This document shows, one piece after another, positions 8,327 to 47,487 of a stretch of 64,000 nt of DNA. A model generated the notes under the pieces. It ran no database searches. It was not told the origin of the DNA and worked only from the letters and a program-made list of their open reading frames with translations. This DNA comes from Chromera velia (Eukaryota): positions 62,001-126,000 of the forward strand of contig JAHBMJ010000377.1 in the NCBI GenBank assembly GCA_018398765.1. The letters are read 5' to 3'. Made by a program: the position numbers and the translations under genes. Numbering within the stretch: position 1 is the first letter of the stretch; every line of letters begins with the position of its first letter.

Positions 8327-8367
<41 letters not shown>

Positions 8368-8809
8368 TTCTTCTTTTGCTGCTGCTGGTCCTTCTGCGTC
8401 TGGGGTGAGGGCTAAAGCTCGTTCCAAGAGCGAGGCAAAGGGTTGTTCTTCCTCCTCCTCCTCCTCCTCCAGTAGTCGCATGTCCTTGTCAGACTCAGTT
8501 AGCAGACAGAGACCCCTTCAGATCTACGAAGATCTAGACTTTGATATGGAAGAGGATTCTGTGACACTTCCCGTGTCCACCCCGTTAGGGAAGTCTCCTC
8601 TGCCCTGCGACACGCAAAGGTACAGAAAGTACGGTGAAGAAGAGAAATATGACCAGACAGGAAAGAAAAGAAGAAAAAAGAATGAGAGGGGTGCTGATAA
8701 ACATGATGATAAGGATGATGACCAAGATGCCGTATACAGTGATGCTGACGATGATGAGGCAAACCAAAACCCTGCTGGACGCGAACTCATGTTGAGACTC
8801 GGACTTTAA
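6482..8809 (+). CDS. Intronless 775-aa protein, putative F-box/LRR-like with poly-Glu and poly-Ser tracts
   Basis: Long ORF. N-terminal VPFTVLEGLVPFFSHRDLQAMAKTCR resembles an F-box. Repeated LxxLxL segments (SLRSLTL, PLQRLEV, RLEALGL, TLRDLQL, NLQRLQM). Domain call is by eye. Confidence 0.6.
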
Positions 8810-14310: not shown

Positions 14311-14377
<67 letters not shown>

Positions 14378-14378
14378 A

Positions 14379-14414
<36 letters not shown>

Positions 14415-20943: not shown

Positions 20944-22305
20944 GCAGTATCGGAGAGACAAGCCAATTATACCTCTATGCCTACATAAGGCTCTCTTCTA
21001 CCGTCCATACAAACATAATCCTTTAGTCAGTCGTAACCACTTCGGCCATACTTCAGTGCTCTGCTCCCCCAGTCATAAACACGAATTTTCATTCCGTTCC
21101 ATCGATGTGTTGGTCAGAAAGGCCAGCCATCATTGTTCATCGCGAACAACTGTTATCGAGACCATCTCTCTGCAAACCCACCTTATGGTCAGTTGGCTTT
21201 CCGCTCTTAAACTCGCTTTTTTTCTCGACGGCCACTGTCTTCTGTCACGGAGCTTGCTCCATAGCCCATATGCAGTCTGGTTCTGAGAAGCCATGTATGG
21301 GCTTGATGCCATCAACCCCTAGACAGGCTGTAGCGCGTTTATCACTCGACCTGAGTACTCCTATTCTCAAAGCACTCTCTGATTCTATATGAATACATCC
21401 TTTGCATGCAGATCATCTCTGTACATTACCTTTTTGGTAAAGGTTTTTGGCGCATGATGCTTTTTGCCGTCGTTTCGCTGTGGTTTTCACGGTGTTAAAG
21501 CACAAGTCAGTCTGAATTCAGCATATACTATACGTCTGTTCAAAACATCTTCGGCTTCACGCTAAGTCTAGTACTTCCCGACTGCTTTTTACAGCTGTTT
21601 TCGAATTTATTTTTGTCTGCTTTCCAATGTGCAGGCGGATGTAAAATTCAAAAATTTGGGACTGCATAGTGCTGAAGCTGTACGCCTTCGGGGGCCCTTG
21701 TACACTGTACCCATGGCGCTGCATCGGTGCAACAAACTCAGATCAGTAAAGCTGGAAAGCAGTCTTTCGGACTCTTTTCTACCTTTTTGCAGCCTGTGCG
21801 ACATCATGCGCAGCACTGAAGCTTGTTCCACGGATAAGTAGAAGAATGTAGGTAGGTGAGCTTGTAACAATAACCTATACACTTCATTAAACTTTCCGGC
21901 CCTCTGATGCTTCATATCCAAGACTGCTAGCCATCCTGGTTCTTGCAAACTGTACATAACCAGAGAAGTTTAGCAAAGGTCTCTTTACGGTAAAGATAGT
22001 TAGTAACTCTGCATGACTTTTTGATATTTCATTTTTTGCAGTTCATTTGGACTTCTTCAATTTACATCGATATGCCATCCCCCCGAGGACAGTGCTAAGC
22101 TGCTTAACGACGGATATTAAAATATATTCAGTCAGTCTATGTAGAAGGTGGTTATCAAATCATCTTCTACACTTTTTTTGCAACTGCATACTTCAGCGCT
22201 AAATTATCTATGAGTATCTCATGCGTATCTCTTATTTTTTATTTAAAAAACTTTTATGACCAGAATCTTCTTTTCAACATATATCACAAGAGAAAAAAAA
22301 AGGAA

Positions 22306-24826
22306 ATGGATATCCAAAATGGTCGGCAACAGCTTGCGGCCTATGCCCAGCTCTATAGAAGAGCAGTGTTCATATTTTTCATCTTCACCCACATCCAAAT
22401 CCCACCGGACCCCAAAACTGGAGAAAAGAAGAGAAAGATATTTTATCCACCTCTAAAGTGGTCCGAGATTACGCGTGAAAATATGGATGCGTACATTGAT
22501 CTAGAAAAGCATGAGGGCATTGTGCTTCTTACGGATGAGAAGAGTAGTTTGACCGTTTTTGATTTTGATTGTCGAGATGAATACGAAAGGGCCGTTAGAG
22601 AAAACCCTGAGAAGAAAAAGCACCTGACAGTCCAGACGCGACGAAGCTTTTATATATACTTTCGATATGACCAAAAAATCCCAAACCAAAGTGAGGTGCT
22701 GTTAGAGTACAAAAAGGTTGACGCATGGTCTGAAGGTGGGCTGCTGATTGCTCCTCCAACGACCGTATACATTGAGAAAGGAAGCGAGACCTTTCAGTAT
22801 GCATTTATTTCGGGGGATGAAACACAGGCTCCATTCCAGCATGCATAAAATATACTAGGCAGAGGCCTTCTCCAGCCAGTTCCATATTTTTTTCTTGATG
22901 CGATGGTACATGTCGCTTCTTCTAAGAGAAAGGCCCAAGCGAATCTCAGCCTACCATCAAACGCCCCCCCATCACCAGTCGACAATACCTACATGCTAGC
23001 AGAAGCCTGTTCACTTTCACAAAAGATCGATGCGGTCGCTACAGAGATTAAAAATTTGTGTGATTGCCTTTTGGATGAGCGGGCACAAAGCTATCAACAT
23101 TGGATCGATATCGGTCATACAATCAAGAATGAATTAGAAAAAGCTGGCTGTCAGCTCTTCCACACATTTTCTGAAAAGTGCCCGGCCAAATACGATTCAT
23201 ACGAGTGCAACAAAAAGTTTGATTCGTTTCTGTATCGGGCGGGAGGGAAGCAACGTTTAATGAAAGCCTCCCTCCACATGTGGGCCTACGAAGACAATTC
23301 TCAGCTATACACCAAAACGATTGCTAAAGCGGCAGCTACTGAAGTGACCCGTCTCCTTTTCCCTTCCCCAGGTGCTAAAAGGTCTCATCGCAAAACCCTG
23401 CCTCTGCTTTTAGCTTCAACTCATACAAAAGTAGGATGGCTGCTAAGAACAATTTTGGCTGACCGGCTGAAATACTGCTGGGGAGAATTTTTTTTCCGAG
23501 AGGGTCATCGGTGGGAATCTTGCCCCATGCAGGTCGATAATGCCCTCTTGCGTATCTGTCTCCAAACAAACATTTGAAAGCCCCTCTCTGCAGAAAAGAG
23601 TGCATTCTTTTCCTAAAATGTCCCTACCATAAAAAATATTATTGAAACACTGAAGTGCTGTGCCCGACAGGACGATAACCAAGACAACGAGCTATACGAC
23701 CGTCTTCATCGCAGCTTGAAGGGGAAGGTTTGTTTCGAAAATGGTGTGTATGACCTTCCCAGCCAAACTTTCACCCCATGGGCACAGATTGGCAGCAGCA
23801 TTGATACAACCATCATTATTAATTATGACTATGATTCCACGCCGAACGAGGAAGCCATTGAAGAAGTGCACATTCAAGGTTTTGAAGCTGCATTTGAAAA
23901 ACAGGCCGACCTATTTCTCCGCCTGCCATGTTGAAGATAAACATTGGGGGAGATGTATGGGAGAGCGAAATTCAGGGAAAGGCGTCACCAGCACTCTTTT
24001 GCAGAACACGTTTGAAAAGTACGTCATCAATCCTCTTTCAGAAATTTTTTTGATGGCTTCGTTCCATACAGATCCCGCCAAAGAAGGTGGATGGATACTG
24101 GACGCCGAGTTTGCCCGCTTAGCACTTACCCAGGAAATTCAGATGGACGCCTCTAATAAAGTGGTCAAGATTCAAAATTTAATGGTAATCTGATCAAACG
24201 TTTTGCTTTCGGTGGAGATGTGCTATGCGCACGACGTCTGTATAACAACGCCCAAGAATTTCGGATTGACGCCGGCCTGTCTGCTAATGTTTTGTAACGA
24301 CTGCCCTCCGATTGAGCCTGTCGATGCTTGCGAGACAATGTTTTCTTTTGAAAGCCTAAATAAGTTTAAGTCAGCCGCCTGGTTTGAGCAGCAACGATCG
24401 GATTATGGCCATACAAACAACTATCTGTCCAGGTATAAAATGGTAGACCCCGACATCAAAGAGAAGTGTGCAACTGCCAGGTGGATCCATGCTTGCTACC
24501 ACCTGATTTTCCATCATTACCAAACCTCTGCTTTGATATTGCCTCCCGATAGCAAAGATCCTGTGGTTGACAGTGAGCGATATCCCGAAACCATCTGTGA
24601 ACGGTGTTTTCAAATTACAGGGATTGAGACAGATATCGTCAGCAATAGTGACTTAGAGTTGTTTATTCGTCAACAAGACCTCAACATCATAAAACTCAGG
24701 CTGCAACAAATACTCAAAAAAATAGGCAGAGGCCAGCCTGAGATACAACCTTGGCGGAGAAATAACCAGAGAGGCCTTTGTAGTTTCAAGCTAGCACCGC
24801 CTGATAACACTCATTTCGCCTTTTAG
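22306..24826 (+). pseudogene. Prim-Pol (bifunctional primase-polymerase) + PriCT-2 + D5-like SF3 helicase, copy 1
   Basis: Prim-Pol: LTVFDFD, TVQTRR.F(H/Y)IYF, VDA(R)SEGGLLIAPPT. PriCT-2: SYQHWIDIGHTIKNE. D5_N: VCFENGVYDL. Walker A GERNSGKG, Walker B RLALTQE, motif C LLMFCND. Disrupted by several stops and frameshifts. Confidence 0.88.
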
Positions 24827-24839
24827 CATGATACACTGT

Positions 24840-24983
24840 TCATGTCTTTATGTGCTGAAGCTCTAACCAAGCAAGATCTAAGCGTTTTTTTGCATACCAC
24901 CTTCGCTGTCCATCTCGAATCTTTTCCAGGAAGCAACTCCGGTAGAGATGCATCGTACGTCGTTGTGCTTCTGTGGTTTTCAT
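24840..24983 (-). CDS. Small basic 47-aa ORF MKTTEAQRRTMHLYRSCFLEKIRDGQRRWYAKKRLDLAWLELQHIKT
   Basis: ATG-to-TGA ORF behind an AT-rich stretch. It resembles small basic helical proteins of DNA viruses, by impression only. Disrupted in copy 2. Confidence 0.4.
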   Translation of the reverse strand: MKTTEAQRRTMHLYRSCFLEKIRDGQRRWYAKKRLDLAWLELQHIKT

Positions 24984-25119
24984 GTGGAACTTTACTTATA
25001 TATATTATTTACAAAGCAACGATAGACATAGGCGTTTTTCAGAAGTGAGTATTATCTTAGAGGTCCTTTGATAACTTCTGTAGCACCTAGCTCCCCACTA
25101 GTCCTCGTCCATAAACTCA

Positions 25120-26701
25120 TCAAGCTCTTTTTGTAGACTTCTGGATGGCTCTGTCTTCTGTGCAAGTAAAGAACCACTGCTCAATCTGGAGCTACCAGGG
25201 CGGGCCTATAAAGAATAGGCCTTTATCCACCGGGGAGATTGAGGAGAAGGAGGGCGAACTATACGCGTACGAGAAGCCAGACTCTGATTGGCATTGCGGA
25301 GCCCTTTGTGCTGCCAAAGATGCCGCGGCGGCTACTCTGCACCTCCAACATCCATAAGAGAGAAAGACAAATCGTTTCAAATTGAATACAATCCGGGGAT
25401 ACTGATGGCCATGTTTGCTAGAGGGGATCCCAAAGAGATTCAGCGGCTGTGTATAGTAGTATTGCTGAGGTGGATCACGGGAGCTGGCAGGCGTGCTAAA
25501 GGCAAAATCAGGTTCGGGGTCATTTGTTTCTCCTGTGCTGAATGTGGAATAAAGACGTGCAAGTTCCAGCTGCAGATGCGGTGGGAGGTGCGTTTTTAGA
25601 AAGTCCTTCAGCTCCACGCTTAGTAACCAGCTTGTGAGAGGGCAAGGTTTTGTTTCATCACCGGTCTTAAGCTTTATTCCTGACTCCTGCGTTATTATAA
25701 TAAGAGCAGTAGCGCGGTTCATGGAATCTTCTACCTCAGAAAAATCGAGGACTGCCAGGCGTTTGTCAAGCAGCTGGACGTCTTGTCTCACTTTATAATG
25801 GTACTCAACAAGCAGGCGGTCCCCGGTGCCCTGGAAGTTTGATACTGGAATCTATTACAGATTATCTGGGCCTAATGGGTAGTCTTTCCATTGAACCTTA
25901 TACTGATTGCGCCTCTCGTCGTAGTCAAGAATTTTCTCAACCTCCTACTCTGCGTCATCAGAAGATTGGGAAATCATTGAGTCTGGCTCTTTGCCTGTAT
26001 TTCGGATTTGAAATGGAAGCATGCCTTTGACTCTGAAGTATTGATGAAACAGATCGAGATCGCCGCTTCCTTGGACCTTGTAATCAAGGCCCGAAGCCCA
26101 ACACAATTCTTGAATGCTCATTCGCATGATCTGTTCATCTGCTCGTTTTTTTTGCCGCTGACGTGCTGTCTGGTTAGCTTTCGATTCTTCCTGACTCAGG
26201 GCAATATTCTTCGGGATTTGGTGCTCTTCATCTAGGATTCCCAATTCTGTATAAAGGTCATAATTGGGGGAAAAATGTGTATCAGACCATAATAAGTATG
26301 AGTCGATTCGGTAGACCTGCTTCCTGACCTCGTCGCAAAAAGACCGGAACATTGCTAGTACATGTGCATGGGAAACGTTAATTAGCCATTCTTGGCGGGA
26401 CTCAAAAATCCGCACTAGGCTTTTGAGCTTATAGTCGCTGAATAAGTCAAGGATCAATCGGGATCAATCGTTCAAAATGATTCAGCCGCGTTTGCGTGAC
26501 CCCAGGCGGAAACACTAGGATACACATAATGTTGAAACCCCACGGATAGCATAAATGGTACTAGTCCAGTCTCTGGTCGGGGTTTTTTAACATGCTACTA
26601 ATTTTAATAAGCGACGGAGATGCTAGGAAAGGATTTTTTAACGCATACAGAATTGGGCGGTTTATGTTGATCAAACAGGTGATAGCTCCACCGGCCGGCA
26701 T
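25120..26701 (-). pseudogene. T5orf172-type GIY-YIG nuclease - chromodomain fusion, copy 1 (~525 aa reconstructed)
   Basis: N-terminal ILYALKNPF...IKI(G)ST.KNPD.RL..Y...FERLI...EW. Chromodomain EVEKILDYDERRNQYKVQWKDYP...WIPVSNF...LLVEY follows an in-frame TAG at 25945-47. A 10-bp duplication at 26451-70 shifts the frame. Confidence 0.8.
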
Positions 26702-26831
26702 ATTTTTTTCGTTTTATCTTACAAGGCGGGGTACAGAGGCAATAAGCCACGCAGCGCGATTCCACATGCACAACGCTAAATTATGGAGATACTCAGCGAC
26801 GCGTCGATCAAAACACAGGAGGTCGGCGTTT

Positions 26832-27446
26832 TTATTCCACAAAAGAGACTCCAGGGTCCCCCCCTATTACAAAAATGCGATGCGCATCACGTGCTAGTTC
26901 TAGAAGGCTGCAAAGTTGCACTAACATTGAAAGAGGTGCTAGTGGAGCAACAGTATCAAAATTTAGGTTTCCCAAAAGCTGCGCTAGGACTGCAGTCTGT
27001 ACACGGACCTGTAGGCGGGACTCGGTAATATATTCTAAGAGCCGTTTATATGGAACAGGGACGGCGGAAGGGAACAGGCAGTCGTGGACCACCATTAGAG
27101 CCTGGAGAGCCCACAACCACCATCCACCCACGTATGCTAGCGTGGAAACACAGTCCAGAATGCCCATAGGTTGAAGACCACGCTCTAGCGATGTACTAGG
27201 AGAAGGTTCAACTAGGTCTACCGAAACATCATCTTGTAAGCTTTCTAGTAAGCTTTCGTCTAGCGCATCTAGCAGGCTTGCTGAAGCCTCAATAATTTGA
27301 GTACTAGCGGTTACAAGCGGCACAAGGTGAAAAGGGACAACTAGACTGCTACTCGGGAACTGGTTGTAAAGAAAGTCGGCAATAAGCGCTTGGGCGGGCA
27401 AAGGGAAGATTTGATGCTTGATTTGTTCGAAATTATATTTTTCCAT
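26832..27446 (-). CDS. Unknown 204-aa element protein, copy 1 (stop-disrupted in copy 2)
   Basis: ATG ORF downstream of an AT-rich putative promoter, directly upstream of and co-oriented with the GIY-YIG gene. Confidence 0.5.
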   Translation of the reverse strand: MEKYNFEQIKHQIFPLPAQALIADFLYNQFPSSSLVVPFHLVPLVTASTQIIEASASLLDALDESLLESLQDDVSVDLVEPSPSTSLERGLQPMGILDCVSTLAYVGGWWLWALQALMVVHDCLFPSAVPVPYKRLLEYITESRLQVRVQTAVLAQLLGNLNFDTVAPLAPLSMLVQLCSLLELARDAHRIFVIGGDPGVSFVE

Positions 27447-27707
27447 CCTAACTTACTGCATAATTTAATATTTCCCTAGATATTTCCTATTCAAAAACAA
27501 ATTATATATGTTAAAGCCTAGTTAAAGCCCTAAAAAACTATAGCTAATAAATTATTGGCTAGCTGGTCGGTGATACGTACACGAAGAGCACTAAACCAGG
27601 GGGATAGTATCTGCATTGAGGTTGTACTTGCAAGAGGCTGGCAACACATTCATGAATTTCACCTCCACATCCGTCTCTTCTTTTCGTTTCATCTCAATTT
27701 TCTTGTT

Positions 27708-28082
27708 TTAGCTGTCCGGCGATTCTGCGACGTTCTTGGAGCTCTGTGCTGCCTGATCGACTCCTTGGGATGCTTCGAGATGTTCTGCCTCGGGGGATGC
27801 CGCTTGGGGGATGGCGCTTGCCAGTGGGGGTGCACCTGACGCCGCTGACGGTGTCCCTGTCTGAGTCACTGAGCCTCTGTCGCGGCCCCAGCCTCTCTTT
27901 GCAAACAGGGTTGCCGAGGCAGAGGAGCTAACAATGGAGAAGGCAAGAGCGACGCCGAGGTTGCCCCAGTAGGTGCTGGAGGGGGCGCCGTCGTACCACG
28001 CAAGAACGATGGCCACCACACCGAGGATTGTAAAAATGATGGTACCAGCCCAAATTTCCCAGACTTGTATCTTGTGCCCATC
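27708..28082 (-). CDS. Putative small two-TM membrane protein of the element, copy 1; start uncertain
   Basis: Frame reads IQVWEIWAGTIIFTILGVVAIVLAWYDG...WGNLGVALAFSIVSSSASATLF; preserved in copy 2 (45179-~45553). Confidence 0.4.
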   Translation of the reverse strand, partial: DGHKIQVWEIWAGTIIFTILGVVAIVLAWYDGAPSSTYWGNLGVALAFSIVSSSASATLFAKRGWGRDRGSVTQTGTPSAASGAPPLASAIPQAASPEAEHLEASQGVDQAAQSSKNVAESPDS

Positions 28083-29344
28083 TGTCCTGCGTACACAGTG
28101 TTAAAAGATGTGACGTCTCATGTATCTTGGATAATGTTCTGACTCACGCGACCAAAAGGAGAAAAGATAACGCCTTTCCATTCCTCAAACGATACACAAA
28201 AAAGGAGGGCATGTACTAAACCATGGATGCGCACTGGACGAAGACAGACGAAGATCCAATCCGCGCCAATCCGAACGTCCAAAGGAAACGACGCGATCGA
28301 CCTTGAGCCACGCACGTGAACAACCATCAGACACCTACGCCCTTCGCGAACCTTTCTTCGATGCACCGAACACCCGGAGGTCTCGAACCAACGGCCATTC
28401 GCGAAATTTTCGTTCGAACGACAAAAAAAAAAACGGAGAAGGCCCGCAAACACTAGCTCAATCAAAAGCTTGGCAGACCACGCGGAACCGAGACCGGACG
28501 TCCTGACGTGGGCAGACACGCTCCACGCTCGCATGCTCAGGCTGCCTGACGATTTCATCCATGCACCCATCACAACACAGCCGACCACACAACACGCGCA
28601 TGCACGTCAACTTAAAGAGATGAAGGTGCCGAATGTAGGATGGAGAATTTTTTGTTCGGGCGACGAGAAAAAGAAAAGGGGGGGGGGAACCCCGCGGACA
28701 CGGCGCTCAGGTTTCTCACACAGCCAGCCACTCACACACACACAGAGCACTCGCGCACTTCCATCTGGCAACGTCGAATGTATGCTGGAGAAAACGGGAA
28801 AGGCCCGCACACACTCAAAGCTCGACAGACCACGCAAAGCCACAGCAGACAGGCAGGCACACACGCCCTCCATGGCTCGCATGCACGCTGTCTGACGGTT
28901 CCATCCATTACGACACACCCGACCAACAGCCACACACGGCACGCGCATGTCAATCTAAAGAGATGGAGATGCCGAATGTAGGATGGAGAATTTTTCGTGC
29001 GGGCAAGGGCGCGACGGAAAAAGAAAAAAAACGGGAAGGGGAAGCCAGGTCGAGCCAGACGAGTCACACGCGACTCAGGAGGAAACCAGAGAGCCGAAGT
29101 CCTAGAGGGTGACGGATGACACACGAAAAGAGAGCACACAACGGAGGTACGAAGACCTGCCTGACGATCAGGGAGGCCAGCCAAGTAGACAATAGAAGAG
29201 CGTCATTTAGGAGACAAGATGTCAGGCGACAGCAGCAGAGGCGACGGCTCACAACGACGTTCAGGGGGTGCCTTGCATGGAGGGGCTGCCGGGAAAGCCA
29301 CGCAACAGTCAAGAAAAAAAGGAAGAAGCTGTGCCGGGCAGCCA

Positions 29345-31960
29345 CACAACAAAAAGGGAACCGGATGACCCACCTGCAGTTGCGGTCCGGGAGGCGTTGT
29401 ACTGGTCACTCAGGGCAATCTTGTTTTGTATGCTGGAGTCGTTGAACCCAGCTTCGTCAAACCCGCGCGAGATGAGCCACTGACGATACTCCACATCAAG
29501 ACCCTGCCAAGCATTCCCATTGTACGCGTGCACAAGCCGATTTCTTGCCTCACGAGAAAGGGTCCATTCTGCATTTGAACCAAAAAACGCGAGGTGACAT
29601 GACGAAATCGCGATTCGAGAAACATTGGAAAAGGCCCGAAAAAAGGACCCTCGGCAAATGGGAAGAGAGCGGCAGGGAAATCCGAGAGGGTGCTAAGTGA
29701 GTAAAGCGGTGACAACTGGCAGGCAGTTCAGAGAAAAAAAAACCTTACGAATGCACAGAAGCAAGGAGCCAAAGTCGACTGCATAGAACGTCGGTCAGCC
29801 GGTAGGGACCAGGGCGCATGCACACAAAGAGGCTTCTGGCCAACGGAACAGTATGAAGCTAGAGGAAAAACCGATCAGTCCAGATCAGGCTGACGAAGAG
29901 TCCCAACGAGAAACGTAAGGGCATCAGTCAGTGAAACAGAAGTGAGCAGGCAGCCCAGACAACAAAAAAAGAAGGGAAACAGACGCACCTGTGGGAGGAA
30001 TCGAACTGCCTCTGGCAGAGTCCCGGTCGTCCGGCAGCAGAGTGGGGGTGTGGAGAGCCTGCACACACACACACACGAAGGCGAAGTTCTTGATTGGAAC
30101 GAGTCAACAGATCCTGAGGCCACCACGGCAGGCACGCTCCACTCACCGCTGGAAGAAGCTCCCAGGCTGCCCCCTTGGGCCCCAGGCTCGACTCGGCCAC
30201 CTTGCTACCCTTGGAGTTCCTCTCAAGCCACACGCAGGGACCTGCAAAAGTGCCAAGAAAAAGCGTTTCGGAGCAGGAACGCGAGAAAAGACGGCCAGCA
30301 CACAAGAGATAGCGGTATGGGTACACAAGCTCACGAAAGTGGAAAGCAGGACACGGAGGACGGACGGACGGACGGACGGACGGACGGACGGACGGACGGA
30401 CGGACGGACGGACGNNNNNNNNNNNNNNNNNNNNNNNNNNNNNNNNNNNNNNNNNNNNNNNNNNNNNNNNNNNNNNNNNNNNNNNNNNNNNNNNNNNNNN
30501 NNNNNNNNNNNNNNNNNNNNNNNNNNNNNNNNNNNNNNNNNNNNNNNNNNNNNNNNNNNNNNNNNNNNNNNNNNNNNNNNNNNNNNNNNNNNNNNNNNNN
30601 NNNNNNNNNNNNNNNNNNNNNNNNNNNNNNNNNNNNNNNNNNNNNNNNNNNNNNNNNNNNNNNNNNNNNNNNNNNNNNNNNNNNNNNNNNNNNNNNNNNN
30701 NNNNNNNNNNNNNNNNNNNNNNNNNNNNNNNNNNNNNNNNNNNNNNNNNNNNNNNNNNNNNNNNNNNNNNNNNNNNNNNNNNNNNNNNNNNNNNNNNNNN
30801 NNNNNNNNNNNNNNNNNNNNNNNNNNNNNNNNNNNNNNNNNNNNNNNNNNNNNNNNNNNNNNNNNNNNNNNNNNNNNNNNNNNNNNNNNNNNNNNNNNNN
30901 NNNACACAACAAAAAGGGAACCGGATGACCCACCTGCAGTTGCGGTCCGGGAGGCGTTGTACTGGTCACTCAGGGCAATCTTGTTTTGTATGCTGGAGTC
31001 GTTGAACCCAGCTTCGTCAAACCCGCGCGAGATGAGCCACTGACGATACTCCACATCAAGACCCTGCCAAGCATTCCCATTGTACGCGTGCACAAGCCGA
31101 TTTCTTGCCTCACGAGAAAGGGTCCATTCTGCATTTGAACCAAAAAACGCGAGGTGACATGACGAAATCGCGATTCGAGAAACATTGGAAAAGGCCCGAA
31201 AAAAGGACCCTCGGCAAATGGGAAGAGAGCGGCAGGGAAATCCGAGAGGGTGCTAAGTGAGTAAAGCGGTGACAACTGGCAGGCAGTTCAGAGAAAAAAA
31301 AACCTTACGAATGCACAGAAGCAAGGAGCCAAAGTCGACTGCATAGAACGTCGGTCAGCCGGTAGGGACCAGGGCGCATGCACACAAAGAGGCTTCTGGC
31401 CAACGGAACAGTATGAAGCTAGAGGAAAAACCGATCAGTCCAGATCAGGCTGACGAAGAGTCCCAACGAGAAACGTAAGGGCATCAGTCAGTGAAACAGA
31501 AGTGAGCAGGCAGCCCAGACAACAAAAAAAGAAGGGAAACAGACGCACCTGTGGGAGGAATCGAACTGCCTCTGGCAGAGTCCCGGTCGTCCGGCAGCAG
31601 AGTGGGGGTGTGGAGAGCCTGCACACACACACACACGAAGGCGAAGTTCTTGATTGGAACGAGTCAACAGATCCTGAGGCCACCACGGCAGGCACGCTCC
31701 ACTCACCGCTGGAAGAAGCTCCCAGGCTGCCCCCTTGGGCCCCAGGCTCGACTCGGCCACCTTGCTACCCTTGGAGTTCCTCTCAAGCCACACGCAGGGA
31801 CCTGCAAAAGTGCCAAGAAAAAGCGTTTCGGAGCAGGAACGCGAGAAAAGACGGCCAGCACACAAGAGATAGCGGTATGGGTACACAAGCTCACGAAAGT
31901 GGAAAGCAGGACACGGAGGACGGACGGACGGACGGACGGACGGACGGACGGACGGACGGA
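29345..31960. other. Near-identical ~1.07-kb duplication (offset 1560) across the N gap 30415-30903; probable assembly overlap
   Basis: 29345-30414 matches 30905-~31960; both end in the (GGAC)n tract at the gap. Confidence 0.85.
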
Positions 31961-35247: not shown

Positions 35248-38200
35248 CCTGTTTATCGCACACGTGGGGACTGTGCGTAGGGAAGCGTACATCAATAAGA
35301 GCACCCATTGGGATAGTATTGAACATCCGGCTAGTCGCGTGGTAGGCTATGCTCCTCTTGAGCTGAAAAAGAATTGTTCGATCGGCAAGCAACACAGCGC
35401 AATGCCCAGCTACTGTTGCGCATACTCCAATTATACCTCTATGCCTGCATAAGGCTCTCTTCTACCGTCCACACAAACATAATCCTTTAGTCAGTTGCAG
35501 CCACTTCGGCCACACTTCAGCGCTCTGCTTCCCCGGTCATGAACACGAATTTTCATTCCATTCCATCGATATGTTGGTCAGAAAGGCCAGCCATCATTGT
35601 TCATCGCGAACAACTATTGTCGAGACCATCTCTCTGCAAACCCACCTTATGGTCAGTTGGCTTTCCACTCTCAAACTCGCTTTTTTTCTCGACGGCCACT
35701 GTCTTTTGTCACGGAGCTTGCTCCATAGCCCATATGCAGTCTGGTTCTGAGAAGCCATGCATGGGCTTGATGCCATCAACCCTTAGACAGGCTGTGGCGC
35801 GTTTATCACTCGACCTGAGTACTCCTATTCTCAGAGCACTCTCTAATTCCATATGAATACATCCTTTGCATGTAGATCATCCCTGTACGTTGCCTTTCTG
35901 GTAAAGGTTTTTGGCGCATGATGCTTTTTGCCGTCGTTTCGCTGTGGTTTTCACGGTGTTGAAACAGAAGTCAGTCTGAATTCAGTACGTACTATACGTC
36001 TATTCAGAACATCTCCGGCTTCACGCCAAGTCTATATAGTACTTCCCAACTGCTTTTTGCAGCTGTTTGTCTGCTTTCCAATGTGCAAACGGACGTAAAA
36101 TTCAAAAATTTGGGACTGCATAGTGCTGAAGCTGTACGCCTTTGGGGGCCCTTGTACACTGTACCTATGGCGCTGCATCGGTACAACAAACTCAAGTCAG
36201 TAAAGCTGGAAAGCAGTCTTTCAGACTCTTTTCTACCTTTTTGCAGCCTGTGCGATATCATACGCAGCATTGAAGCTTGTTCTACCGATGAGTAGAAGAA
36301 TGTAGGTAGGCGAGCTTGTAACAATAACCTATACACTTCATTAAACTTTCCGGCCCTCTGACGCTTTATATCCAAGACTGCTAGCCATCTCGGTTCTTGC
36401 AAGCTGTACATAACCAGGAAAGTTTAGCAAAGGTCTCTTTACGGTAAAGATAGTTAGTAACTCTACATAACTTTTTGATATTTCTTTTTTTGCAGTTCAT
36501 TTGGACTTCTTCAATTCACATCGACATGCCATCCCCCGAGGACAGTGCTAAGCTGCTCAACGACGGATATCAAAATATATCCAGTGAGTCTACATAGAAG
36601 GTGGTTATCAAATCATCTTCTACACTTTTCTTGCAACTGCATACTTCAGCGCTAAATTATCTATAAGTATCTCATGCGTGTCTCTTATTTTTTATTTAAA
36701 AAAAATTTTATGACCAGAATCTTCTTTTCGACATGTATCACAAGAGAAAAAAAAAGAAAAATTAATCGATATCCAAAATGGTCAGCAATAGCTTGCGGTC
36801 TATGCTCAGTTCTATAGAAAAGCAGGGTTCATATTTTTCACCTTCACCCACGTCCAAATCCCACCGGACCCCGAAACTGGAGAAAAGAAGAGAAAGATAT
36901 TTTATCCACCCCTAAAGTGGTCCGAGATTACGAATGAAAATATGGATGCGTACATTGATCTAAAAAAGCATGAGGGCATTGCGCTTCTTATGGGTGAGAA
37001 AAGTAATTTGACTGTTTTTGATTTTGATCGTCGAAATGAATACGAAAGGGCCGTTAGAGAAAACCCTAAGCTGAAAGAGCACCTGACAGTCCAGACGTGA
37101 TGAGGCTTTCATATATACTTTCGATATAACCAAAAAGTTCCAAACCAAAGTGAGGTGCTGTTAGAGTATAAAAAGGTTGACGCACGGTCTGAAGGTGGGC
37201 TGCTGATTGCTCCCCCAACGACCGTGTACATTGAGAAAGGAAGCGAGACCTTTCAGTATGCATTTATTTCGGGGGATGAAACACAGGCTCCATTCCAGCA
37301 TGCATAAAATATACTAGGCGGAGGCCTTCTCCAGCCAGTTCCATATTTTTTTCTTGATGCGATGGTACACGTCGCTTCTTCTAAGAGAAAGGCCCAAGCG
37401 AATCTCAGCCTACCATCAAACGCCCCCCCATCACCAGTCGACAATACCTACATGCTAGCAGAAGCCTGTTCACTTTCACAAAAGATCGATGCGGTCGCTA
37501 CAGAGATTAAAAATTTGTGTGATTGCCTTTTGGATGAGCGGGTACAAAGCTATCAACATTGGATCGATATCGGTCATACAATCAAGAATGAATTAGAAAA
37601 AGCTGGCTGTCAGCTCTTCCACACATTTTCTGAAAAGTGCCCGGCCAAATACGATTCATACGAGTGCAACAAAAAGTTTGATTCGTTTCTGTATCGGGCG
37701 GGAGGGAAGCAACGTTTAATGAAAGCCTCCCTCCACATGTGGGCCTACGAAGACAATTCTCAGCTATACACCAAGACGATTGCTGAAGCGGCAGCTATCA
37801 AAGTGACCCATCTCCTTTTCCCTTCCCCAGGTACTAAAAGGTCTCATCGCAAAACCCTGCCTCTGCTTTTAGCTTCAACTCATATAGAAGCAGGATAGCT
37901 GCTAAGAACAATTTTGGCTGACCGGCTGAAATGCTGCCGGGGAGAATTTTTTTTCCGAGAGGGTCATCGGTGGGAATCTTGCCCTAGATCTTGCCCCATG
38001 CAGGTCGATAATGCCCTCTTGGGTATCTGTCTCCAAATAAACATCCGAAAGGCCCTCTCTGCAGAGAAGAGTGCATTCTTCTCCCAAAATGTCCTTACCA
38101 CAAAAAATATTATTGAAGCACTGAAGTGCTGTGCCCGACAGGACAATAACCAAGATAACGCGCTGTACGACCATCTTCATCGCAGCTCAATTTTGAAAGG

Positions 38201-40046
38201 GGAAGGTTTATTTCAAAAATGGTGTGTATAACCTTCCTAGCCAAACTTTCACCCCATGGGCACAGATTGGCAGCAGCATTGATACAACCATCATTATTAA
38301 TTATGACTACGATTCCACAACTGACTGTACTGACAATTAAAACTTTTATACTAGAAAGTGACTTTTAATTTTCTATATATCACACTAAATTTTATATAAA
38401 AAACTAAGTCTTTAAAGTACTTAGAATGATTTTATTTATTGTTTTTTACCTGCATGAAAGTATGAACAACTTTTAAAGATAAGGTTTAATAGGTTTGTGG
38501 TGTGTATGTTGGAAATTGTTGGACGTGAGTGAGGTGAAAGAGTTATAGTATGTTGATATGTCGGGGAATAATTGTAAACTCTGCAGGTATGTGACAATAC
38601 GCAGTGTAATGCACAAACAAGCTAACTTTTACTTTCAATGGAATACGCCGAATCCACATACTGATGTAAGAAGCGAGCACACAGTGGGCAACCCCCATGA
38701 AAGGTAAGAATGAATGTCCACAAACAGATCTGCCGATTTGACACCCACAGAAAGCAGTTCAACCAAACAAATGTTGAGCACTATGACCGTGCAAGAGGTA
38801 AATGCTTAGCTTCTGAAAGCTTGATCGATCCATGGCCTCTAGCCAGAGGGCTTTGCCCATGACCGGCCATCATAGCGTTCTTATTTTTTCTGGATGAGGC
38901 CCGGCACTGGCCACTGGGTCTTAGTCCACCCAGGAGCCCTACCTCCAAATTCTTATGCAAACAAGAGCTGCGCCTCACTCCCACAACTTCAGATTACCCG
39001 AGATTACCAGCTGTAATGCTTTCTCACGAAACCCAAGCACCAACAAACGGTCCTCCGAGAAAAGCTCAGTCTGACCTGCAGCACAGATATACAAAAATTC
39101 ATAAAGTGGCTCACCTTCTGGCCATCCAGAGCTGGCCTCCTCATCCAGAAAGCCTTTCCAGCTCCTTATCTAGAGCTTGTTAGAGCGCACGCATAAAACA
39201 GATTCAATGGAAGCTTTACTGGGGCAACTTGCGTGGAGACGGGCCGTGCCTTTCGTGATGGAAGATCGAAATTGCCCTCTCAGGGCAACCAGTAGAGTAA
39301 ATATTATAAACCCAAGAAAAAGCAAAGAAGCCAATCCTCTGGGCTTTCGATAAAGCCTACTTTCATCGTTGGAGAGCAAGTCTGTGTGATGGGAGAGAGG
39401 CAGCACTAGGTTGTGCTCTGATTGACTTGAAACATTCGACGGAAAGCCGATTTTGGGAGCCGATTTTAGATTGGCCAACCATGTGATGGCCCCGGAAGGC
39501 AAGCTACATGTTGTGGGCCAGGGTCCGGCCGGCCACCAAGGCTAAAAAGCACTTCCCGGCTGCACGCTGACCCATCAAAATGCCGATCTAAAAATTTTTT
39601 AGTAAAGTCTTCAGAAAGTTCTCCTCCAATCAGAAAGTCAGGTCAACAGAATGGGCCTCTATCCACAAAATCTCGTTGTCAAGCATTCCATTGGATTGTA
39701 TTGGAAGGCTTGACAACGACGAAATCGTGTTCAGCTTATTATTCCAGAACCTCATTTTTGGAGGGGTTACAGATTCCGGATTTTTGTCCCCCTCCGGTAT
39801 CTGTGTTGGCTGGACACCTCTGGTTGCTCGTGAGAGTGATTGCCTCGGTGCAAAGGAGTTGTCCGACAATTAGAAGGGTTGCCGGACTGGTTTAGATCGC
39901 TCAATCAGGTCAGTTCGTTTTATATCGTTCCACCAGCAACAGGAGGGGGTGAACCCTCTCACAGAGGTATGAAACGGCCAAATTTGGTACCTTTAGTAGA
40001 AAGGGGGGGTCCGACCTGCTCTGCAGGTTTGCGTCCAAAATGTTGC

Positions 40047-40395
40047 TTTCCTAATTTCGGCTTTCCTGCCTGCCTGATTGCCTTCCCTATTTTAGCTTTC
40101 CTTCCTGCCCAAGTTTCCTTTTAACGCTTCCTAATTTCGGTCATCCTGCTTGCCCGATAGCCTTCCCAATTTTATTCTTCCTGCTGGCCCGACTGTCTTC
40201 CCAAGTTCGGCCTTCTTGTATATCTGACTGCCTCCCAGAGTTCGTTCTTTCTGCCTACATGCCTGCCTTCCAATTTCGATTTTCTTGATGGCCTGACTGC
40301 CTTCCAATTTCGGCCTTCCTGCCTGCCTGATTGCCTTCCCGATTTCGGCCTTCCTGCCCGTCCGATTGCTTTCCTAATTTCGGTCTTCCTGCTTT
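40047..40395. repeat. Degenerate ~34-bp tandem repeat (CCTTCCTAATTTCGGCCTTCCTGCCTGCCTGATTG-like)
   Basis: Visible periodicity inside the 2.8-kb element. Confidence 0.7.
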
Positions 40396-40946
40396 CATAT
40401 ATCATTCTGATGCAAATTAAAGATACAGGTTATATTTGCATGCATGCTTTTATGTGTATTCTGGCGATTCGACTAACTTTCTGTTTATGTGTACGTATTT
40501 TTGCAGGTGGCGTTCACGGGTGTGCATGTTTGATATATACGGAGATGCCCCCCCNNNNNNNNNNNNNNNNNNNNTACCCGTGACACGCCCGCCGTTGAGC
40601 AGTGCCTCATATGAATTGAAAACAAAACAGTTATGATCATGAAAAGAAATGCTTCAATCAGATCGATTCAGAGCCATTCAGATACATTTCTTATTGTGTT
40701 TTCATCTTAGCGTTAATTTACGATGATAGGTACTAGACAATTTATGGTTTTGAAAAAATATCTACTCTATGTATACATTTTTTTATTTTATTTTTTAAAC
40801 ATCTTACTAAGCTTAAATAGTCTTAAATGAATTATGAAAATCAATTAGTTTAAAGGTGTGTTGTGAGGCCGCGATTGATCAGCTGTATCAAGGTGATCGA
40901 AGTCACGCCTATTTTCGTTGCTGGTAGTCGTAGGATGGAACAAATC

Positions 40947-41014
40947 GACAAACTAGGTTAGATCCGCCTCTCATACATGGGGACGCGGCATGCATGAAAA
41001 AACCCTCAATCATC
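40947..41014 (-). repeat. ~68-bp dispersed repeat, copy 3
   Basis: Aligns to the 17291 and 18044 copies. Confidence 0.75.
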
Positions 41015-42393
41015 GTTTAAAGGTTAAACTATCTATTTTAATGTTTTAAAAACTAAATTTTTTAGTCACTTTCCAGTATAAAAGTTTTAATTGTCAGTAC
41101 AGTCAGTTCCACGCCGAACGACGAAGTGCGCGTTCAGGTTTTTGAAGCTGCATTTGAAGAACAGGCCGACTTGTTTCTCCACTTTCTTGCCAGAGCAATT
41201 GGGGGCCATGTTGAAGATAAACATTGGGGAAGATGTATGGGAGAGTGAAATTCAGGGAAAGGCGTCACCAGCACTCTTTTGCAGAACACGTTTGAGAAGT
41301 ACGTCATCAATCCTCTTTCAGAAAATTTTTTGATGGCCTCGTTCCATACAGATCCCGCCAAAGAAGGTGGATGGATACTGGACGCCGAGTTTGCCCGCTT
41401 AGCACTTACCCAGGAAATTCAGATGGACGCCTCTAATAAAGTGGTCAAGATTTAAAATTTAATGGTAATCTGATCAAACGTTTTGCTTCCGGTGGAGATG
41501 TGCTATGCGCACGACGTTTGTATAACAACGCCCGAGAATTTCGGATTGACACCGGCCTGTCTGCTGAAGTTCTGTAACGACTGCCTTCCGATTGAGCCTG
41601 TCGATGCTTGCGAGACAATGTTTTCTTTTGAAAGCCTAAATAAGTTCAAGTCAGCCGCCTGGTTTGAGTAGCAACGATCGGATTATGGCCATACAGACAA
41701 CTATCTGTCCAGGTATAAAATGGTAGACCCCGATATCAAGGAGAAGTATGCAACTGCCAGGTGGATCCATGCTTGCTACCACCTGATTTTCCATCATTAC
41801 CAAACCTCCGCTTTGATATTGCCTCCCGATATTGAAGATCCTGTGGTTGACAGTGAGCGATATCCCGAAACCATCTGTGAACAGTGTTTTCAAATTATGG
41901 GGATCGAGACAGATATCGTCAGCAATAGTGACTTGGAGTTGTTTATTTGTCAACAAGACCTCAACATCATAAAACTCAGGCTGCAACAAATACTTAAAAG
42001 AATAGGCAGAGGCCAGATACGACCTTGGCGGAGAAATAACCAGAGAGGCCTTTGTGGTTTCAAGCTAGCACCGCCTGATAACACTCATTTCGCCTTTTAG
42101 CGTGATACACTGTTCGTGCCTTCATGTGTTGAAGCTTTAACCAAGCAGGATCTAAGTGTTTTTCTGTATACCACCTTCACTGTCCATCTTGAATCTTTTC
42201 TGGGAAGCAAGTCCGGTAAAGATGCATCGCACGTCGTTATGCTTCTATGGTTTTCATGTGGAACTTTACTTATATATATTATGTACATAGCAATGATAGA
42301 CATAGGCGTTTTTCAGAAGTGGGTGTTATCTTAGAAGTCCTTTGATAACCTCTGTAGCACCTAGCTCCCCACTAGTCCTCGTCCATAAACTCA

Positions 42394-47100: not shown

Positions 47101-47487
47101 AAAGGACCCTCGGCAAATGGCAAGAGAGCGGCAGGGAAATCCGAGAGGGTGCTAAGTGAATAAAGCGGTGACAACTGGCAGGCAGTTCAGCCCATGCACA
47201 GAGACAACGGGGGGGGGATCACATGGATGATGCCCCCCCAAAATGGTGGGAAATTTAAAAGGGAAACTCAGGACAGACACACAAAGGTCATCATGAGGGA
47301 ACTCGATCTGGAACGAAAACAAAATTCCAGAGGCAATTCGGAGACAAAGAGAACAAGTCAGATCAACGACAGGAAATAAGAATGGCAAGTTCATTGCGAA
47401 AAGCGGGGAGAAAAAAGAAAAAGAGTCAAGAGAACAAAAGATGCGAAACGGCAGGATTGAAGACACAATGACCGACTATAGGCTGAC

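What the first reader, a model, noticed from the sequence alone, without database searches (positions are those of the whole stretch)
25120..26701. Hidden GIY-YIG (T5orf172) nuclease fused to a chromodomain in a primase-helicase element
Seen: the ORF track shows only fragments. Removing the 10-bp duplication GGATCAATCG (26451-70) and reading through five stop codons gives one minus-strand frame of ~525 codons. Four of these stops are sense codons (CAG, CAA, TGG) in copy 2; the TAG at 25945 is shared. The N-terminus (ILYALKNP...IKIGST.KNPDRRL.QY...FERLI...EW) fits the T5orf172/MUG113 GIY-YIG family. The middle, open in copy 2 at 43224-~43075, reads EVEKILDYDERRNQYKVQWKDYP...WIPVSNF...LLVEY, a canonical chromodomain. 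The shared TAG lies where the first aromatic-cage residue (W/Y) belongs. Known: chromodomains on chromovirus integrases steer insertion to methylated-histone chromatin. Inference: this may be a chromatin-targeted endonuclease that cuts host DNA to promote integration or replication of an element with no integrase. I do not recall this architecture being described.
Basis: partly seen in the sequence, partly recalled or inferred. Interest (0 to 1): 0.85.

Follow-up and report, generated by a model that had tools for sequence, protein, structure and literature searches.

The report
Broken nuclease–chromodomain gene in repeat element
Two decayed copies of a repeated DNA element carry a broken gene that once joined a probable DNA-cutting domain (T5orf172/GIY-YIG type) to a histone-mark reader (chromodomain), a pairing I did not find in print and one that would likely have steered the cutter to marked chromatin.

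Summary
On the minus strand, 26701-25120 (copy 1) and 44172-42394 (copy 2) are two 93-95% identical pseudogene copies of one ~523-codon frame. Every stop private to one copy is a transition of a sense codon in the other. The 10-bp duplication at 26451-26470 matches the two target-site repeats that flank a 192-bp MITE-like insert in copy 2. The shared TAG (25945-47) reads TGG (Trp) in most other copies of this repeat family in two sequencing runs, and is W or F in the two protein relatives.

The chromodomain is real. Pfam is below threshold on the window copies, but the stretch aligns end to end with a Pfam-significant chromodomain in a Chromera velia homologue.

The T5orf172 call is probable but borderline: 19.0 bits against a cut-off of 20, on one copy only.

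No intact copy was seen, and no relative carries both domains. The two window copies are a segmental duplication of one already dead copy, so linkage to the neighbouring primase-helicase gene rests on one ancestral locus.

A chromatin-guided nuclease is a reasonable inference and is untested. I rate it a new variant of a known theme (chromodomain-targeted mobile-element enzymes), of moderate interest.

The parts
20963..29731 (.). Copy 1 of the duplicated repeat segment. The right end is repeated by an assembly duplication around an N gap (29344-30412 = 30904-31973).
   Evidence: Self-BLAST gives 93.1-95.5% identity to 35427-47190. There are no terminal inverted or direct repeats at the ends.
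35427..47190 (.). Copy 2 of the duplicated repeat segment. It carries two extra nested insertions.
26461..26701 (-). Copy 1, N part of the gene (80 codons). It holds the T5orf172-like first half (ILY...KISSM...NPDQRL...FERLI) with one TAG at 26563-61.
   Evidence: Translation. No Pfam hit on this copy. At 26563 and 26592 most other copies read G, giving CAG and ACG.
26451..26470 (.). Tandem 10-bp duplication GGATCAATCG x2. It shifts the frame and is read here as the footprint (retained target-site duplication) of the insert still present in copy 2.
   Evidence: It is absent from other family copies (table 4 and loose ends).
26332..26460 (-). Copy 1, inferred second half of the T5orf172-like domain (LDLFSDYKLK...SRQEWLINVSHAHVLAMF).
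   Evidence: Translation. It has no profile hit of its own, so the assignment is by motif reading and is inferred.
25948..26331 (-). Copy 1 linker. It holds the conserved motif M..QE..W..G..YK..G shared with the two Chromera relatives. The invariant Met codon is at 26121-26119.
25792..25947 (-). Copy 1 chromodomain (X-EVEKILDYDERRNQYKVQWKDYP...IPVSNF...LLVEYHYK). It has the shared TAG at 25947-45 and private TAA and TAG at 25857-52.
   Evidence: Pfam Chromo E 5.8e-4, 20.2 bits. Coordinates. Homologue alignment.
25120..25791 (-). Copy 1 C-terminal tail (~223 codons, no known domain, one private TAG at 25194-92), ending at TGA 25122-20, which is followed by a second stop.
   Evidence: Summed contig depth is lower at 25318-25539 than over the two domains.
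43930..44172 (-). Copy 2, N part of the gene (81 codons, no stop). This is the stretch that gives the T5orf172 match.
   Evidence: Pfam PF10544 E 2.1e-3, 19.0 bits, profile positions 2-48 of 101. The Atlas's nearest named clusters are T5orf172/MUG113/GIY-YIG at 0.90-0.93. BLASTP to a phage T5 T5orf172 ORF gives E 1e-3.
43740..43931 (.). 192-bp MITE-like insert that splits the T5orf172-like domain in copy 2. It is flanked by the 10-bp repeats 43730-39 and 43932-41.
   Evidence: There is no second copy in the window.
43066..43227 (-). Copy 2 chromodomain. It is open apart from the shared TAG at 43227-25.
   Evidence: Pfam Chromo E 1.4e-3 to 4.3e-3. BLASTP to P0007 covers the whole domain at E 4e-8.
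42394..43065 (-). Copy 2 C-terminal tail with one private TAG and the shared terminal TGA.
22108..24826 (+). Copy 1 primase-helicase pseudogene, convergent with the nuclease-chromo gene. It holds Prim-Pol (22108-22845), PriCT-2 (22849-23574), D5_N (23617-23931) and a helicase-like stretch with a GKGVTS Walker-A-like motif (23720-24823).
   Evidence: Pfam gives Prim-Pol 24.2 bits, PriCT_2 E 5.8e-12 and D5_N 22.1 bits (cut-off 22.4). PHROGs gives DNA primase at 5e-5. The helicase is read from the motif only, with no profile or PDB hit.
38319..41108 (.). 2.79-kb element with 45-bp terminal inverted repeats, nested in copy 2's primase-helicase gene and absent from copy 1.
   Evidence: No Pfam family in its ORFs.

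Best explanation
These are two decayed, locally duplicated copies of a repeat-family gene that once encoded one ~523-residue protein: a probable T5orf172-type (GIY-YIG superfamily) nuclease domain at the N terminus, a ~110-residue linker, a canonical chromodomain with a full aromatic cage, and a tail of unknown function. That protein is predicted to have acted as a chromatin-tethered nuclease for the mobile element that carries it.

Shown:
- the continuous ancestral frame;
- the chromodomain;
- the high copy number of the family;
- the neighbouring primase-helicase gene.

Probable: the T5orf172 identity.

Inferred: the layout mirrors modular GIY-YIG homing enzymes such as I-TevI (a weakly specific catalytic head, a long linker, then a targeting module; recalled knowledge). 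Here a histone methyl-lysine reader takes the place of the DNA-binding module. The enzyme would therefore cut or nick DNA beside marked (H3K9me- or H3K27me-type) nucleosomes. Host repair could then insert or copy the element there, which parallels what integrase chromodomains do for chromoviruses.

The copies in this window are dead. They carry stops, a frameshifting footprint, a MITE-like insert, a 1-bp deletion and transition hypermutation.
For: One frame.
- The C part has 4 stops in 446 codons, against 18-31 in the other frames. None of 2000 shuffles has 4 or fewer.
- All private stops are transitions of sense codons in the sister copy.
- The shared TAG reads TGG in most family copies: 431.6 of 486.5 depth in X1 and 792.6 of 914.6 in X2.
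- The 10-bp duplication is absent from other copies. It corresponds to the target-site repeats of the insert in copy 2.

Chromodomain.
- Pfam Chromo scores 16.5-20.2 bits on five overlapping queries from the two copies.
- phmmer over 1.84 billion proteins finds 3 hits at E <= 1e-3. P0006 (E 7.3e-15) has W at the TAG position. P0007 (E 3.8e-8) has a chromodomain that passes Pfam (41.2 bits, residues 114-161). P0008 is a generic chromodomain protein.
- BLASTP of copy 2 against P0007 aligns the whole domain, including W.P..N...LL.E.H.
- 35 of the 41 listed Foldseek rows for a low-confidence model are chromodomain chains.
- The cage residues W (VQW) and Y (KDY) are present in both copies.

T5orf172.
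- PF10544 gives E 2.1e-3 and 2.7e-3 on two cuts of copy 2's N part.
- The Atlas's nearest named clusters are T5orf172/MUG113/GIY-YIG.
- BLASTP to a T5 ORF that passes PF10544 at 49 bits gives E 1e-3 over NP..KIG.S.NP..RL.QY..P.
- At 26592 most other copies read G, which restores KIxST.

Mobile context.
- About 600 contig pieces at 80% likeness or more lie on 24800-27000 in each of two runs.
- A Prim-Pol/PriCT-2/D5_N gene lies next to it.
- No integrase, transposase or recombinase family was found in any of the 151 stop-to-stop ORFs of 60 aa or more in the two copies.
Against: - No intact copy was seen.
- No protein in 5.8 billion clusters (word-indexed) or 1.84 billion representatives carries both domains.
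- The two relatives are chromo-only gene models. P0006 starts exactly at the Met that is invariant in all four aligned sequences, so a separate chromodomain protein is possible.
- The T5orf172 evidence is below Pfam's cut-off. It is absent from copy 1 and lost when the stretch is given as a 90-aa ORF. The second halves score nothing.
- A two-sequence T5 profile scores the X-joined reads at only 9.5 and 9.3 bits. The best of 1000 shuffles scores 5.4.
- Both AlphaFold models are low confidence, with pLDDT 52.8 and 49.7.
- phmmer against PDB sequences finds no chromodomain.
- Pfam's T5orf172 domain was first proposed as a DNA-binding module (recalled), so catalysis is not assured.
- The shared defects show that the two copies are one locus duplicated. 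Gene linkage within one element, the element's ends and the absence of an integrase are therefore poorly founded.
- No chromatin, expression or activity data exist here.
Confidence: 0.45

Rival explanations
1. The gene is a selfish passenger. It would be a free-standing homing-endonuclease-type T5orf172 gene riding in a virus-like (polinton-like) or other primase-helicase element, and it happens to have acquired a chromodomain. It would spread itself by cutting rival or empty alleles packaged in host chromatin, rather than serving the element's integration.
For: A paper on cryptophyte polinton-like viruses (passages read, PMC12220804) reports that AEP-S3H primase-helicases are frequent there. 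It also reports that GIY-YIG genes, including the T5orf172 subfamily, are widespread, mostly as standalone homing-endonuclease-like genes. The gene here is convergent with the primase-helicase gene and is not part of it.
Against: No capsid, packaging ATPase or other virus hallmark was detected in the copies, although they are heavily decayed and Pfam is poor for such proteins. A homing enzyme needs sequence specificity, and no DNA-binding module was found apart from the T5orf172-like domain itself.
Confidence: 0.2
2. The protein does not cut DNA but tethers or regulates. The T5orf172-like domain would bind the element's DNA and the chromodomain would bind host nucleosomes. This would anchor a replicating episome to chromosomes, or recruit or evade silencing.
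For: The element encodes its own primase-helicase, which suits an episomal phase. T5orf172 was first described as a DNA-binding module in viral regulators (recalled). The catalytic residues could only be placed by eye, because the domain is split in both copies.
Against: The N part keeps the Tyr (ILY), the KIG.T motif and the Arg (DRRL) that align with a phage T5 T5orf172 ORF. Downstream there is a Glu in QEW, but its placement is by motif reading only. The family's nearest Atlas clusters are named GIY-YIG nuclease.
Confidence: 0.2
3. There are two genes rather than a fusion: a small T5orf172 protein, and a separate chromodomain protein starting at the conserved Met (26121-26119).
For: P0006 (217 aa) begins at exactly that Met, and P0007 (262 aa) lacks any T5orf172 part. 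The Met is invariant in the four aligned sequences.
Against: In copy 1 there is no stop between the T5orf172-like C half and that Met, and both parts are in the same frame. P0007's homology extends about 35 residues upstream of the Met, from query residue 78. The two gene models come from automatic annotation of a repeat-rich genome and may be truncated: P0006 loses similarity halfway through the chromodomain.
Confidence: 0.12
4. The long frame and the motifs are chance features of non-coding repeat DNA.
For: All profile hits on the window copies are below curated cut-offs.
Against: The stop depletion is far beyond shuffles. There are library-wide significant homologues. Most other copies carry sense codons at the stop positions.
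Confidence: 0.02

Closest known systems
Chromovirus (Ty3/gypsy) integrases with a C-terminal chromodomain
   Same: A mobile-element enzyme that acts on target DNA is fused to a chromodomain. [quoted passage not shown] That such chromodomains direct insertion to heterochromatin is recalled (Gao et al. 2008, not read here). The aromatic cage is of the three-residue type.
   Different: Here the partner is a T5orf172/GIY-YIG-like domain at the N terminus, not an rve integrase. There are no RT, LTR or rve domains in the copies. The element carries a DNA primase-helicase.
Modular GIY-YIG homing endonucleases (I-TevI type) and free-standing T5orf172 genes of phages, giant viruses and polinton-like viruses
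   Same: An N-terminal GIY-YIG-superfamily head is followed by a long linker and a targeting module (I-TevI layout, recalled). T5orf172 genes are common in elements with primase-helicases (PMC12220804 passages). The N part resembles a phage T5 T5orf172 ORF at E 1e-3.
   Different: The targeting module is a histone-mark reader rather than a DNA-binding domain. In polinton-like viruses the T5orf172 genes are reported as mostly standalone. No paper in the library holds both 'T5orf172' and 'chromodomain'.
Chromera velia proteins Cvel_5272 (P0006) and Cvel_29272 (P0007, named 'Chromo domain-containing protein')
   Same: They share the same linker motif plus chromodomain, at 48% and 27-30% identity. 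They are the only relatives found.
   Different: Both are short, chromo-only gene models without a T5orf172 part. Their genomic context could not be read.
Penelope-like retroelements (GIY-YIG endonuclease as the mobility nuclease)
   Same: This is a eukaryotic mobile element that uses a GIY-YIG-superfamily nuclease instead of an integrase or transposase (recalled).
   Different: There is no reverse transcriptase here. The nuclease subfamily is different. Penelope nucleases are not known to carry a chromodomain (recalled).

Membership tests
Chromodomain (Pfam PF00385) | Profile match at or above the curated cut-off (25.1 bits) | tested here: not met
   The window copies score 16.5-20.2 bits, and only profile positions 2-27 of 53 align. 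The stop or X at the first cage residue and a loop insertion lower the score. The homologue P0007 passes at 41.2 bits and aligns with the window copy over the whole domain. Membership is therefore accepted by transitive homology, not by the direct score.
Chromodomain (Pfam PF00385) | Three aromatic cage residues (HP1 Y24/W45/Y48 positions; numbering recalled) | tested here: met
   W of VQW and Y of KDY are present in both copies. The first position is TAG in both copies, but it is TGG in most family copies and W or F in the relatives.
Chromodomain (Pfam PF00385) | Three-stranded sheet packed against a C-terminal helix | tested here: inconclusive
   The single-sequence AlphaFold model has pLDDT 52.8, with three strands and no helix. 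Foldseek against the PDB finds nothing at E <= 1e-3, yet 35 of the 41 listed rows are chromodomains.
T5orf172 (Pfam PF10544, GIY-YIG clan) | Profile match at or above the curated cut-off (20 bits) | tested here: inconclusive
   Two cuts of copy 2's N part score 19.0 and 18.6 bits over profile positions 2-48 of 101. There is no hit on copy 1, on the 90-aa ORF or on the C halves. The domain is split in both copies, so only half could be scored. The X-joined reads score 9.5 and 9.3 bits with a two-sequence T5 profile, against 5.4 for the best of 1000 shuffles.
T5orf172 (Pfam PF10544, GIY-YIG clan) | Catalytic Tyr, Arg and Glu of the GIY-YIG fold in register | tested here: inconclusive
   Tyr (ILY), KIG.T and Arg (DRRL) align with a phage T5 T5orf172 ORF. 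The Glu (QEW) was placed by motif reading only. The structure model is unusable (pLDDT 49.7).
Chromovirus / retroviral-type integrase elements | An rve integrase core (and RT and LTRs for chromoviruses) | tested here: not met
   No rve, RT or other recombinase family was found in the 151 ORFs of 60 aa or more in both copies. There are no terminal repeats at the copy ends.
Polinton-like virus / virophage-like integrated element | Double jelly-roll capsid genes and a packaging ATPase | tested here: inconclusive
   Pfam, PHROGs and NCBIfam give no such hits. However, the copies are decayed, their true ends are unknown, and these libraries detect such capsid genes poorly.
D5-like primase-helicase (neighbouring gene) | An AEP primase, PriCT and D5_N followed by an SF3 helicase | tested here: inconclusive
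   Prim-Pol scores 24.2 bits (cut-off 22.8), PriCT_2 46.3 bits and D5_N 22.1 bits (cut-off 22.4). The helicase is read only from a GKGVTS Walker-A-like motif (printed), with no profile or PDB hit.

The most novel reading that the evidence does not exclude
A previously unrecognised class of eukaryotic DNA element, replicated by its own primase-helicase, inserts without an integrase or transposase. Instead it uses a GIY-YIG-superfamily nuclease that is aimed by a histone-mark reader rather than by DNA sequence. This would be a natural 'epigenome-guided nuclease'.
Probability: 0.2. Interest if true: 0.8.

Novelty: new variant of a known kind. Interest (0 to 1): 0.5.

Why it matters
Chromodomains are known to steer retrotransposon integrases to silent chromatin. 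If a nuclease of a different superfamily, in a DNA element with its own primase-helicase, is aimed the same way, then chromatin-mark targeting has been recruited independently by very different mobility machines. It would also give a compact natural template for nucleases that read histone marks instead of DNA sequence.

The family may explain part of the large unclassified repeat fraction of a chromerid-type genome. The Chromera genome paper's repeat table lists 6.3 Mb of unassigned class 2 DNA and 13.8 Mb of unclassified repeats (PMC4501334, supplementary file 11).

The practical value is limited for now, because only dead copies were seen.

Tried and rejected
Searches for relatives that found nothing:
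- The search for homologous proteins with P0001;
- the same tool with the PriCT-2 ORF, longer proteins;
- the same tool with alignment A2, which found only P0007 itself;
- IMG/VR scans with P0001, the PriCT-2 ORF and P0003;
- a JGI metagenome scan with A1;
- tblastn of P0003 against phages, where the 3 hits at E 2-9 were meaningless;
- PHROGs and NCBIfam on the gene pieces;
- phmmer against PDB sequences for the chromodomain ORF and both halves of the primase-helicase;
- this scan's earlier notes by place and by sequence.

Structure:
- Single-sequence AlphaFold of the chromodomain piece and of the T5orf172 N part gave pLDDT 52.8 and 49.7. The second model was not searched because it is too poor.

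Building a broader T5orf172 profile:
- This failed. IMG/VR returned only T5-like phages, 8 loci at 99-100% identity. The genome-contig scan returned none. Only a weak two-sequence profile could be used.

Sequencing runs:
- No RNA holder is listed, so nothing can be said on expression.
The copy number of the primase-helicase part and the family's true ends therefore stay open.

Genome and host:
- No whole genome is held for the window.
- I first considered a fungal host with RIP. The ATPase's nearest Atlas clusters are mostly Ascomycota, and 92% of differences between the copies are transitions. I dropped this reading because the ATPase introns are 250-400 bp and rich in microsatellites. In addition, the only relatives of the gene are Chromera velia proteins.

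Splice-acceptor reading of the shared TAG:
- Rejected, because most copies read TGG there.
Full report
WHAT IS THERE

The window is eukaryotic. It holds an intron-split P-type ATPase gene at 12394-16652 on the minus strand, and no whole genome is held for it.

It contains two direct copies of a long segment: 20963-29731 and 35427-47190. They are 93.1-95.5% identical over three blocks. The copy ends carry no terminal inverted or direct repeats and no obvious target-site duplication.

Of the 437 substitutions between the copies, 401 are transitions. Where the neighbouring base is unchanged, they fall in CpA/TpG (146), CpG (112), CpT/ApG (69) and CpC/GpG (39) contexts.

THE MINUS-STRAND GENE

Copy 1 reads as 80 codons (26701-26461, one TAG), then a tandem 10-bp duplication (26451-70), then 446 codons (26460-25123) with four internal stops, then TGA. 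The C part has 4 stops where the other five frames have 18-31. Shuffles give 22.8 +/- 4.5, and 0 of 2000 shuffles reach 4 or fewer.

A base-by-base alignment of the two copies shows the following.
- Every stop private to one copy is a transition of CAG, CAA, TGG, CGA or CGG in the other.
- Copy 2 has a 1-bp deletion in an A run.
- There is a 6-bp indel in the chromodomain loop.
- One TAG (25947-45 / 43227-25) is shared.

THE 10-BP DUPLICATION

In copy 2 the same two 10-mers flank a 192-bp insert (43740-43931). Its ends are imperfect 12-bp inverted repeats: 9 of 12 positions match and the mismatches are transitions. Copy 1 has both 10-mers but no insert.

The simplest reading, which is inferred, is this. 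A MITE-like element inserted into the ancestor of both copies and made a 10-bp target-site duplication. It was later lost from copy 1 and left the duplication as a footprint. Other family members lack the duplication ('10 left out at 26451' in 3 contigs of X1 and 2 of X2, and loose ends that read through a single 10-mer).

THE FAMILY

Contigs of public runs were laid on 24800-27000 at 80% likeness or more. They give 607 and 591 pieces in the two large runs, and every one of the 30 bins is covered. Summed depth is 100-871 in X1, where single listed contigs have depth 9-17. This is therefore a multi-copy repeat family.

The best-supported differences from the window are mostly A>G and T>C. The window copies thus carry G>A and C>T changes relative to most copies.

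Three of these differences matter.
- At 25946 most copies read C, which turns the shared TAG into TGG. This holds for 431.6 of 486.5 depth in X1 and 792.6 of 914.6 in X2.
- At 26563 they read G (TAG becomes CAG).
- At 26592 they read G (ATG becomes ACG, giving the KI.ST motif).

These are observations on copies. I built no consensus.

THE TWO COPIES ARE ONE LOCUS

The two window copies share the TAG and the insertion site. They therefore descend from one copy that was already dead and then duplicated locally. They are not two independent insertions.

THE CHROMODOMAIN

Pfam Chromo hits the window copies at 16.5-20.2 bits (E 5.8e-4 to 8.2e-3). This is below the 25.1-bit cut-off, and only profile positions 2-27 align. 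phmmer against PDB sequences finds no chromodomain.

A phmmer pass over 1.84 billion representatives gives three hits at E <= 1e-3.
- P0006 (217 aa, E 7.3e-15, 48% identity) reads ...DSDWEIEEILDFDERRNRYKVLWKDYP, with W where the window has TAG.
- P0007 (262 aa, E 3.8e-8) has a chromodomain that passes Pfam (41.2 bits, residues 114-161), with F at that place.
- P0008 is a generic chromodomain protein.

BLASTP of copy 2 against P0007 (E 4e-8) runs from the linker through the whole chromodomain.

A single-sequence AlphaFold model is poor, with pLDDT 52.8 and three strands. Foldseek finds nothing at E <= 1e-3. Even so, 35 of the 41 listed rows are chromodomain chains such as MPP8, CDYL2, Rhino, CBX7, HP1 and Polycomb.

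With W, W and Y at the three cage positions, this is a canonical methyl-lysine-reader chromodomain in the ancestral state. The residues are seen directly. Binding is inferred.

THE T5ORF172 PART

Only copy 2's N part gives PF10544: 19.0 bits (E 2.1e-3) as 81 aa and 18.6 bits as 63 aa, over profile positions 2-48 of 101, against a cut-off of 20. Copy 1, the same stretch given as a 90-aa ORF, and the second halves give nothing, even at E <= 10.

Independent leads are as follows.
- The Atlas's nearest named clusters for the 81-aa piece are T5orf172/MUG113/GIY-YIG families at 0.90-0.93. The shared-feature counts (153-168) are under the tool's 170 guide.
- BLASTP to a phage T5 ORF that itself passes PF10544 at 49 bits gives E 1e-3, with 33% identity over 42 residues.
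- The X-joined reads of both copies outscore their halves and all 1000 shuffles with a weak two-sequence T5 profile. The scores are 9.5 and 9.3 bits against a best shuffle of 5.4, but the E-value is only about 0.1.

I rate the T5orf172 identity as probable, not proven. The domain is split in both copies, so the full domain could not be scored.

FUSION OR TWO GENES

In copy 1 there is no stop between the T5orf172-like part and the chromodomain, apart from the shared TAG at its first residue. All parts share one frame. P0007's homology begins at query residue 78, upstream of the conserved Met.

Against a fusion, both relatives are chromo-only gene models, and P0006 starts at the Met that is invariant in the alignment. 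Both are automatic models from Chromera velia CCMP2878. Their loci could not be read.

No protein with both domains was found anywhere.

THE SURROUNDINGS

The plus strand carries a convergent pseudogene with Prim-Pol (24.2 bits), PriCT-2 (E 5.8e-12) and D5_N (22.1 bits against a cut-off of 22.4). It also has a helicase-like stretch with a GKGVTS motif that gets no profile or PDB hit. In copy 2 this gene is split by a 2.79-kb element with 45-bp inverted ends.

None of the 151 stop-to-stop ORFs of 60 aa or more in the two copies matches an integrase, transposase, recombinase, RT or capsid family (63 at E <= 0.05, 88 at E <= 0.01). Given the decay and the unknown element ends, this is weak evidence that the element lacks an integrase.

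HOST

The only relatives are Chromera velia proteins. The two large runs hold about 200 million letters of contigs, and the Chromera genome paper gives 193.6 Mb with about 30 Mb of transposable elements (PMC4501334, passages read). Its repeat table lists no primase-helicase class, but it does list 6.3 Mb of unassigned class 2 DNA and 13.8 Mb of unclassified repeats (supplementary file 11).

The window therefore probably comes from Chromera or a close relative. This is inferred.

HOW IT MOST LIKELY WORKED

The layout is a GIY-YIG-type head, a ~110-residue linker and then a targeting module. This is the layout of modular GIY-YIG homing enzymes (recalled knowledge), with a histone-mark reader in place of the DNA-binding module.

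I infer a nuclease tethered to marked nucleosomes that breaks nearby DNA, so that the element is inserted or copied there by host repair. This parallels integrase chromodomains of chromoviruses (PMC3605345, abstract seen in the listing).

Three rivals remain: a homing-type selfish passenger, as reported for polinton-like viruses (PMC12220804 passages); a non-catalytic tether or regulator; and two separate genes.

NOVELTY

No paper in the searched library holds both 'T5orf172' and 'chromodomain'. None holds 'chromodomain', 'polinton-like' and 'GIY-YIG' together. Six papers hold 'GIY-YIG', 'chromodomain' and 'transposable element', and none of them describes such a fusion by title or abstract. 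I could not consult domain-architecture databases.

Earlier notes of this scan record chromodomains paired or fused with other mobile-element enzymes, namely RAG1-like transposases and giant-virus serine recombinases. These notes are unchecked here, and they make the theme less isolated.

VERDICT

The architecture is probable. The function is inferred. Only dead copies were seen. I rate it a new variant of a known kind, with interest 0.5.

Noticed in passing
window 20963-29731 vs 35427-47190: 401 of the 437 substitutions between the two linked copies are transitions, spread over CpA, CpG, CpT and CpC contexts. Most other family copies carry G or C where the window has A or T. This is a RIP-like or deamination-type decay of repeats in what is probably an alveolate alga rather than a fungus.
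   Followed up: partly
window 43740-43931 and 26451-26470: A 192-bp MITE-like insert with imperfect 12-bp inverted ends and 10-bp flanking repeats sits in copy 2. Copy 1 keeps both 10-mers without the insert, which looks like an excision footprint. There is no second copy of the insert in the window.
   Followed up: partly
window 38319-41108: A 2.79-kb element with 45-bp terminal inverted repeats (97.8% alike) is nested in copy 2's primase-helicase gene. It has 4-6 bp of repeated flank (CCAC or TTCCAC). None of its ORFs matches a Pfam family, so it is probably non-autonomous.
   Followed up: partly
window 29344-30412 and 30904-31973: A 1.07-kb stretch is repeated at 99.7% identity on either side of a 489-N gap. 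This is most likely an assembly artefact that doubles the right end of copy 1.
   Followed up: no
window 26832-27446 (-) and 44306-44923 (-): A 204-codon ORF lies just upstream of the nuclease-chromo gene on the same strand. It is open in copy 1 and broken in copy 2, with no Pfam, PHROGs or NCBIfam match. It may be a further gene of the element.
   Followed up: partly
window 12394-16652 (-): A P-type cation ATPase gene is split by introns of roughly 250-400 bp that are rich in CT and CTTT microsatellites.
   Followed up: partly
window 6482-8809 (+): A 775-codon open frame has no Pfam family.
   Followed up: no
window 58879-59742 and 3559-4290: There are two tandem arrays: nine copies of a 72-bp unit and nine copies of a 61-bp unit, with the inner copies 96-99% alike.
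   Followed up: no
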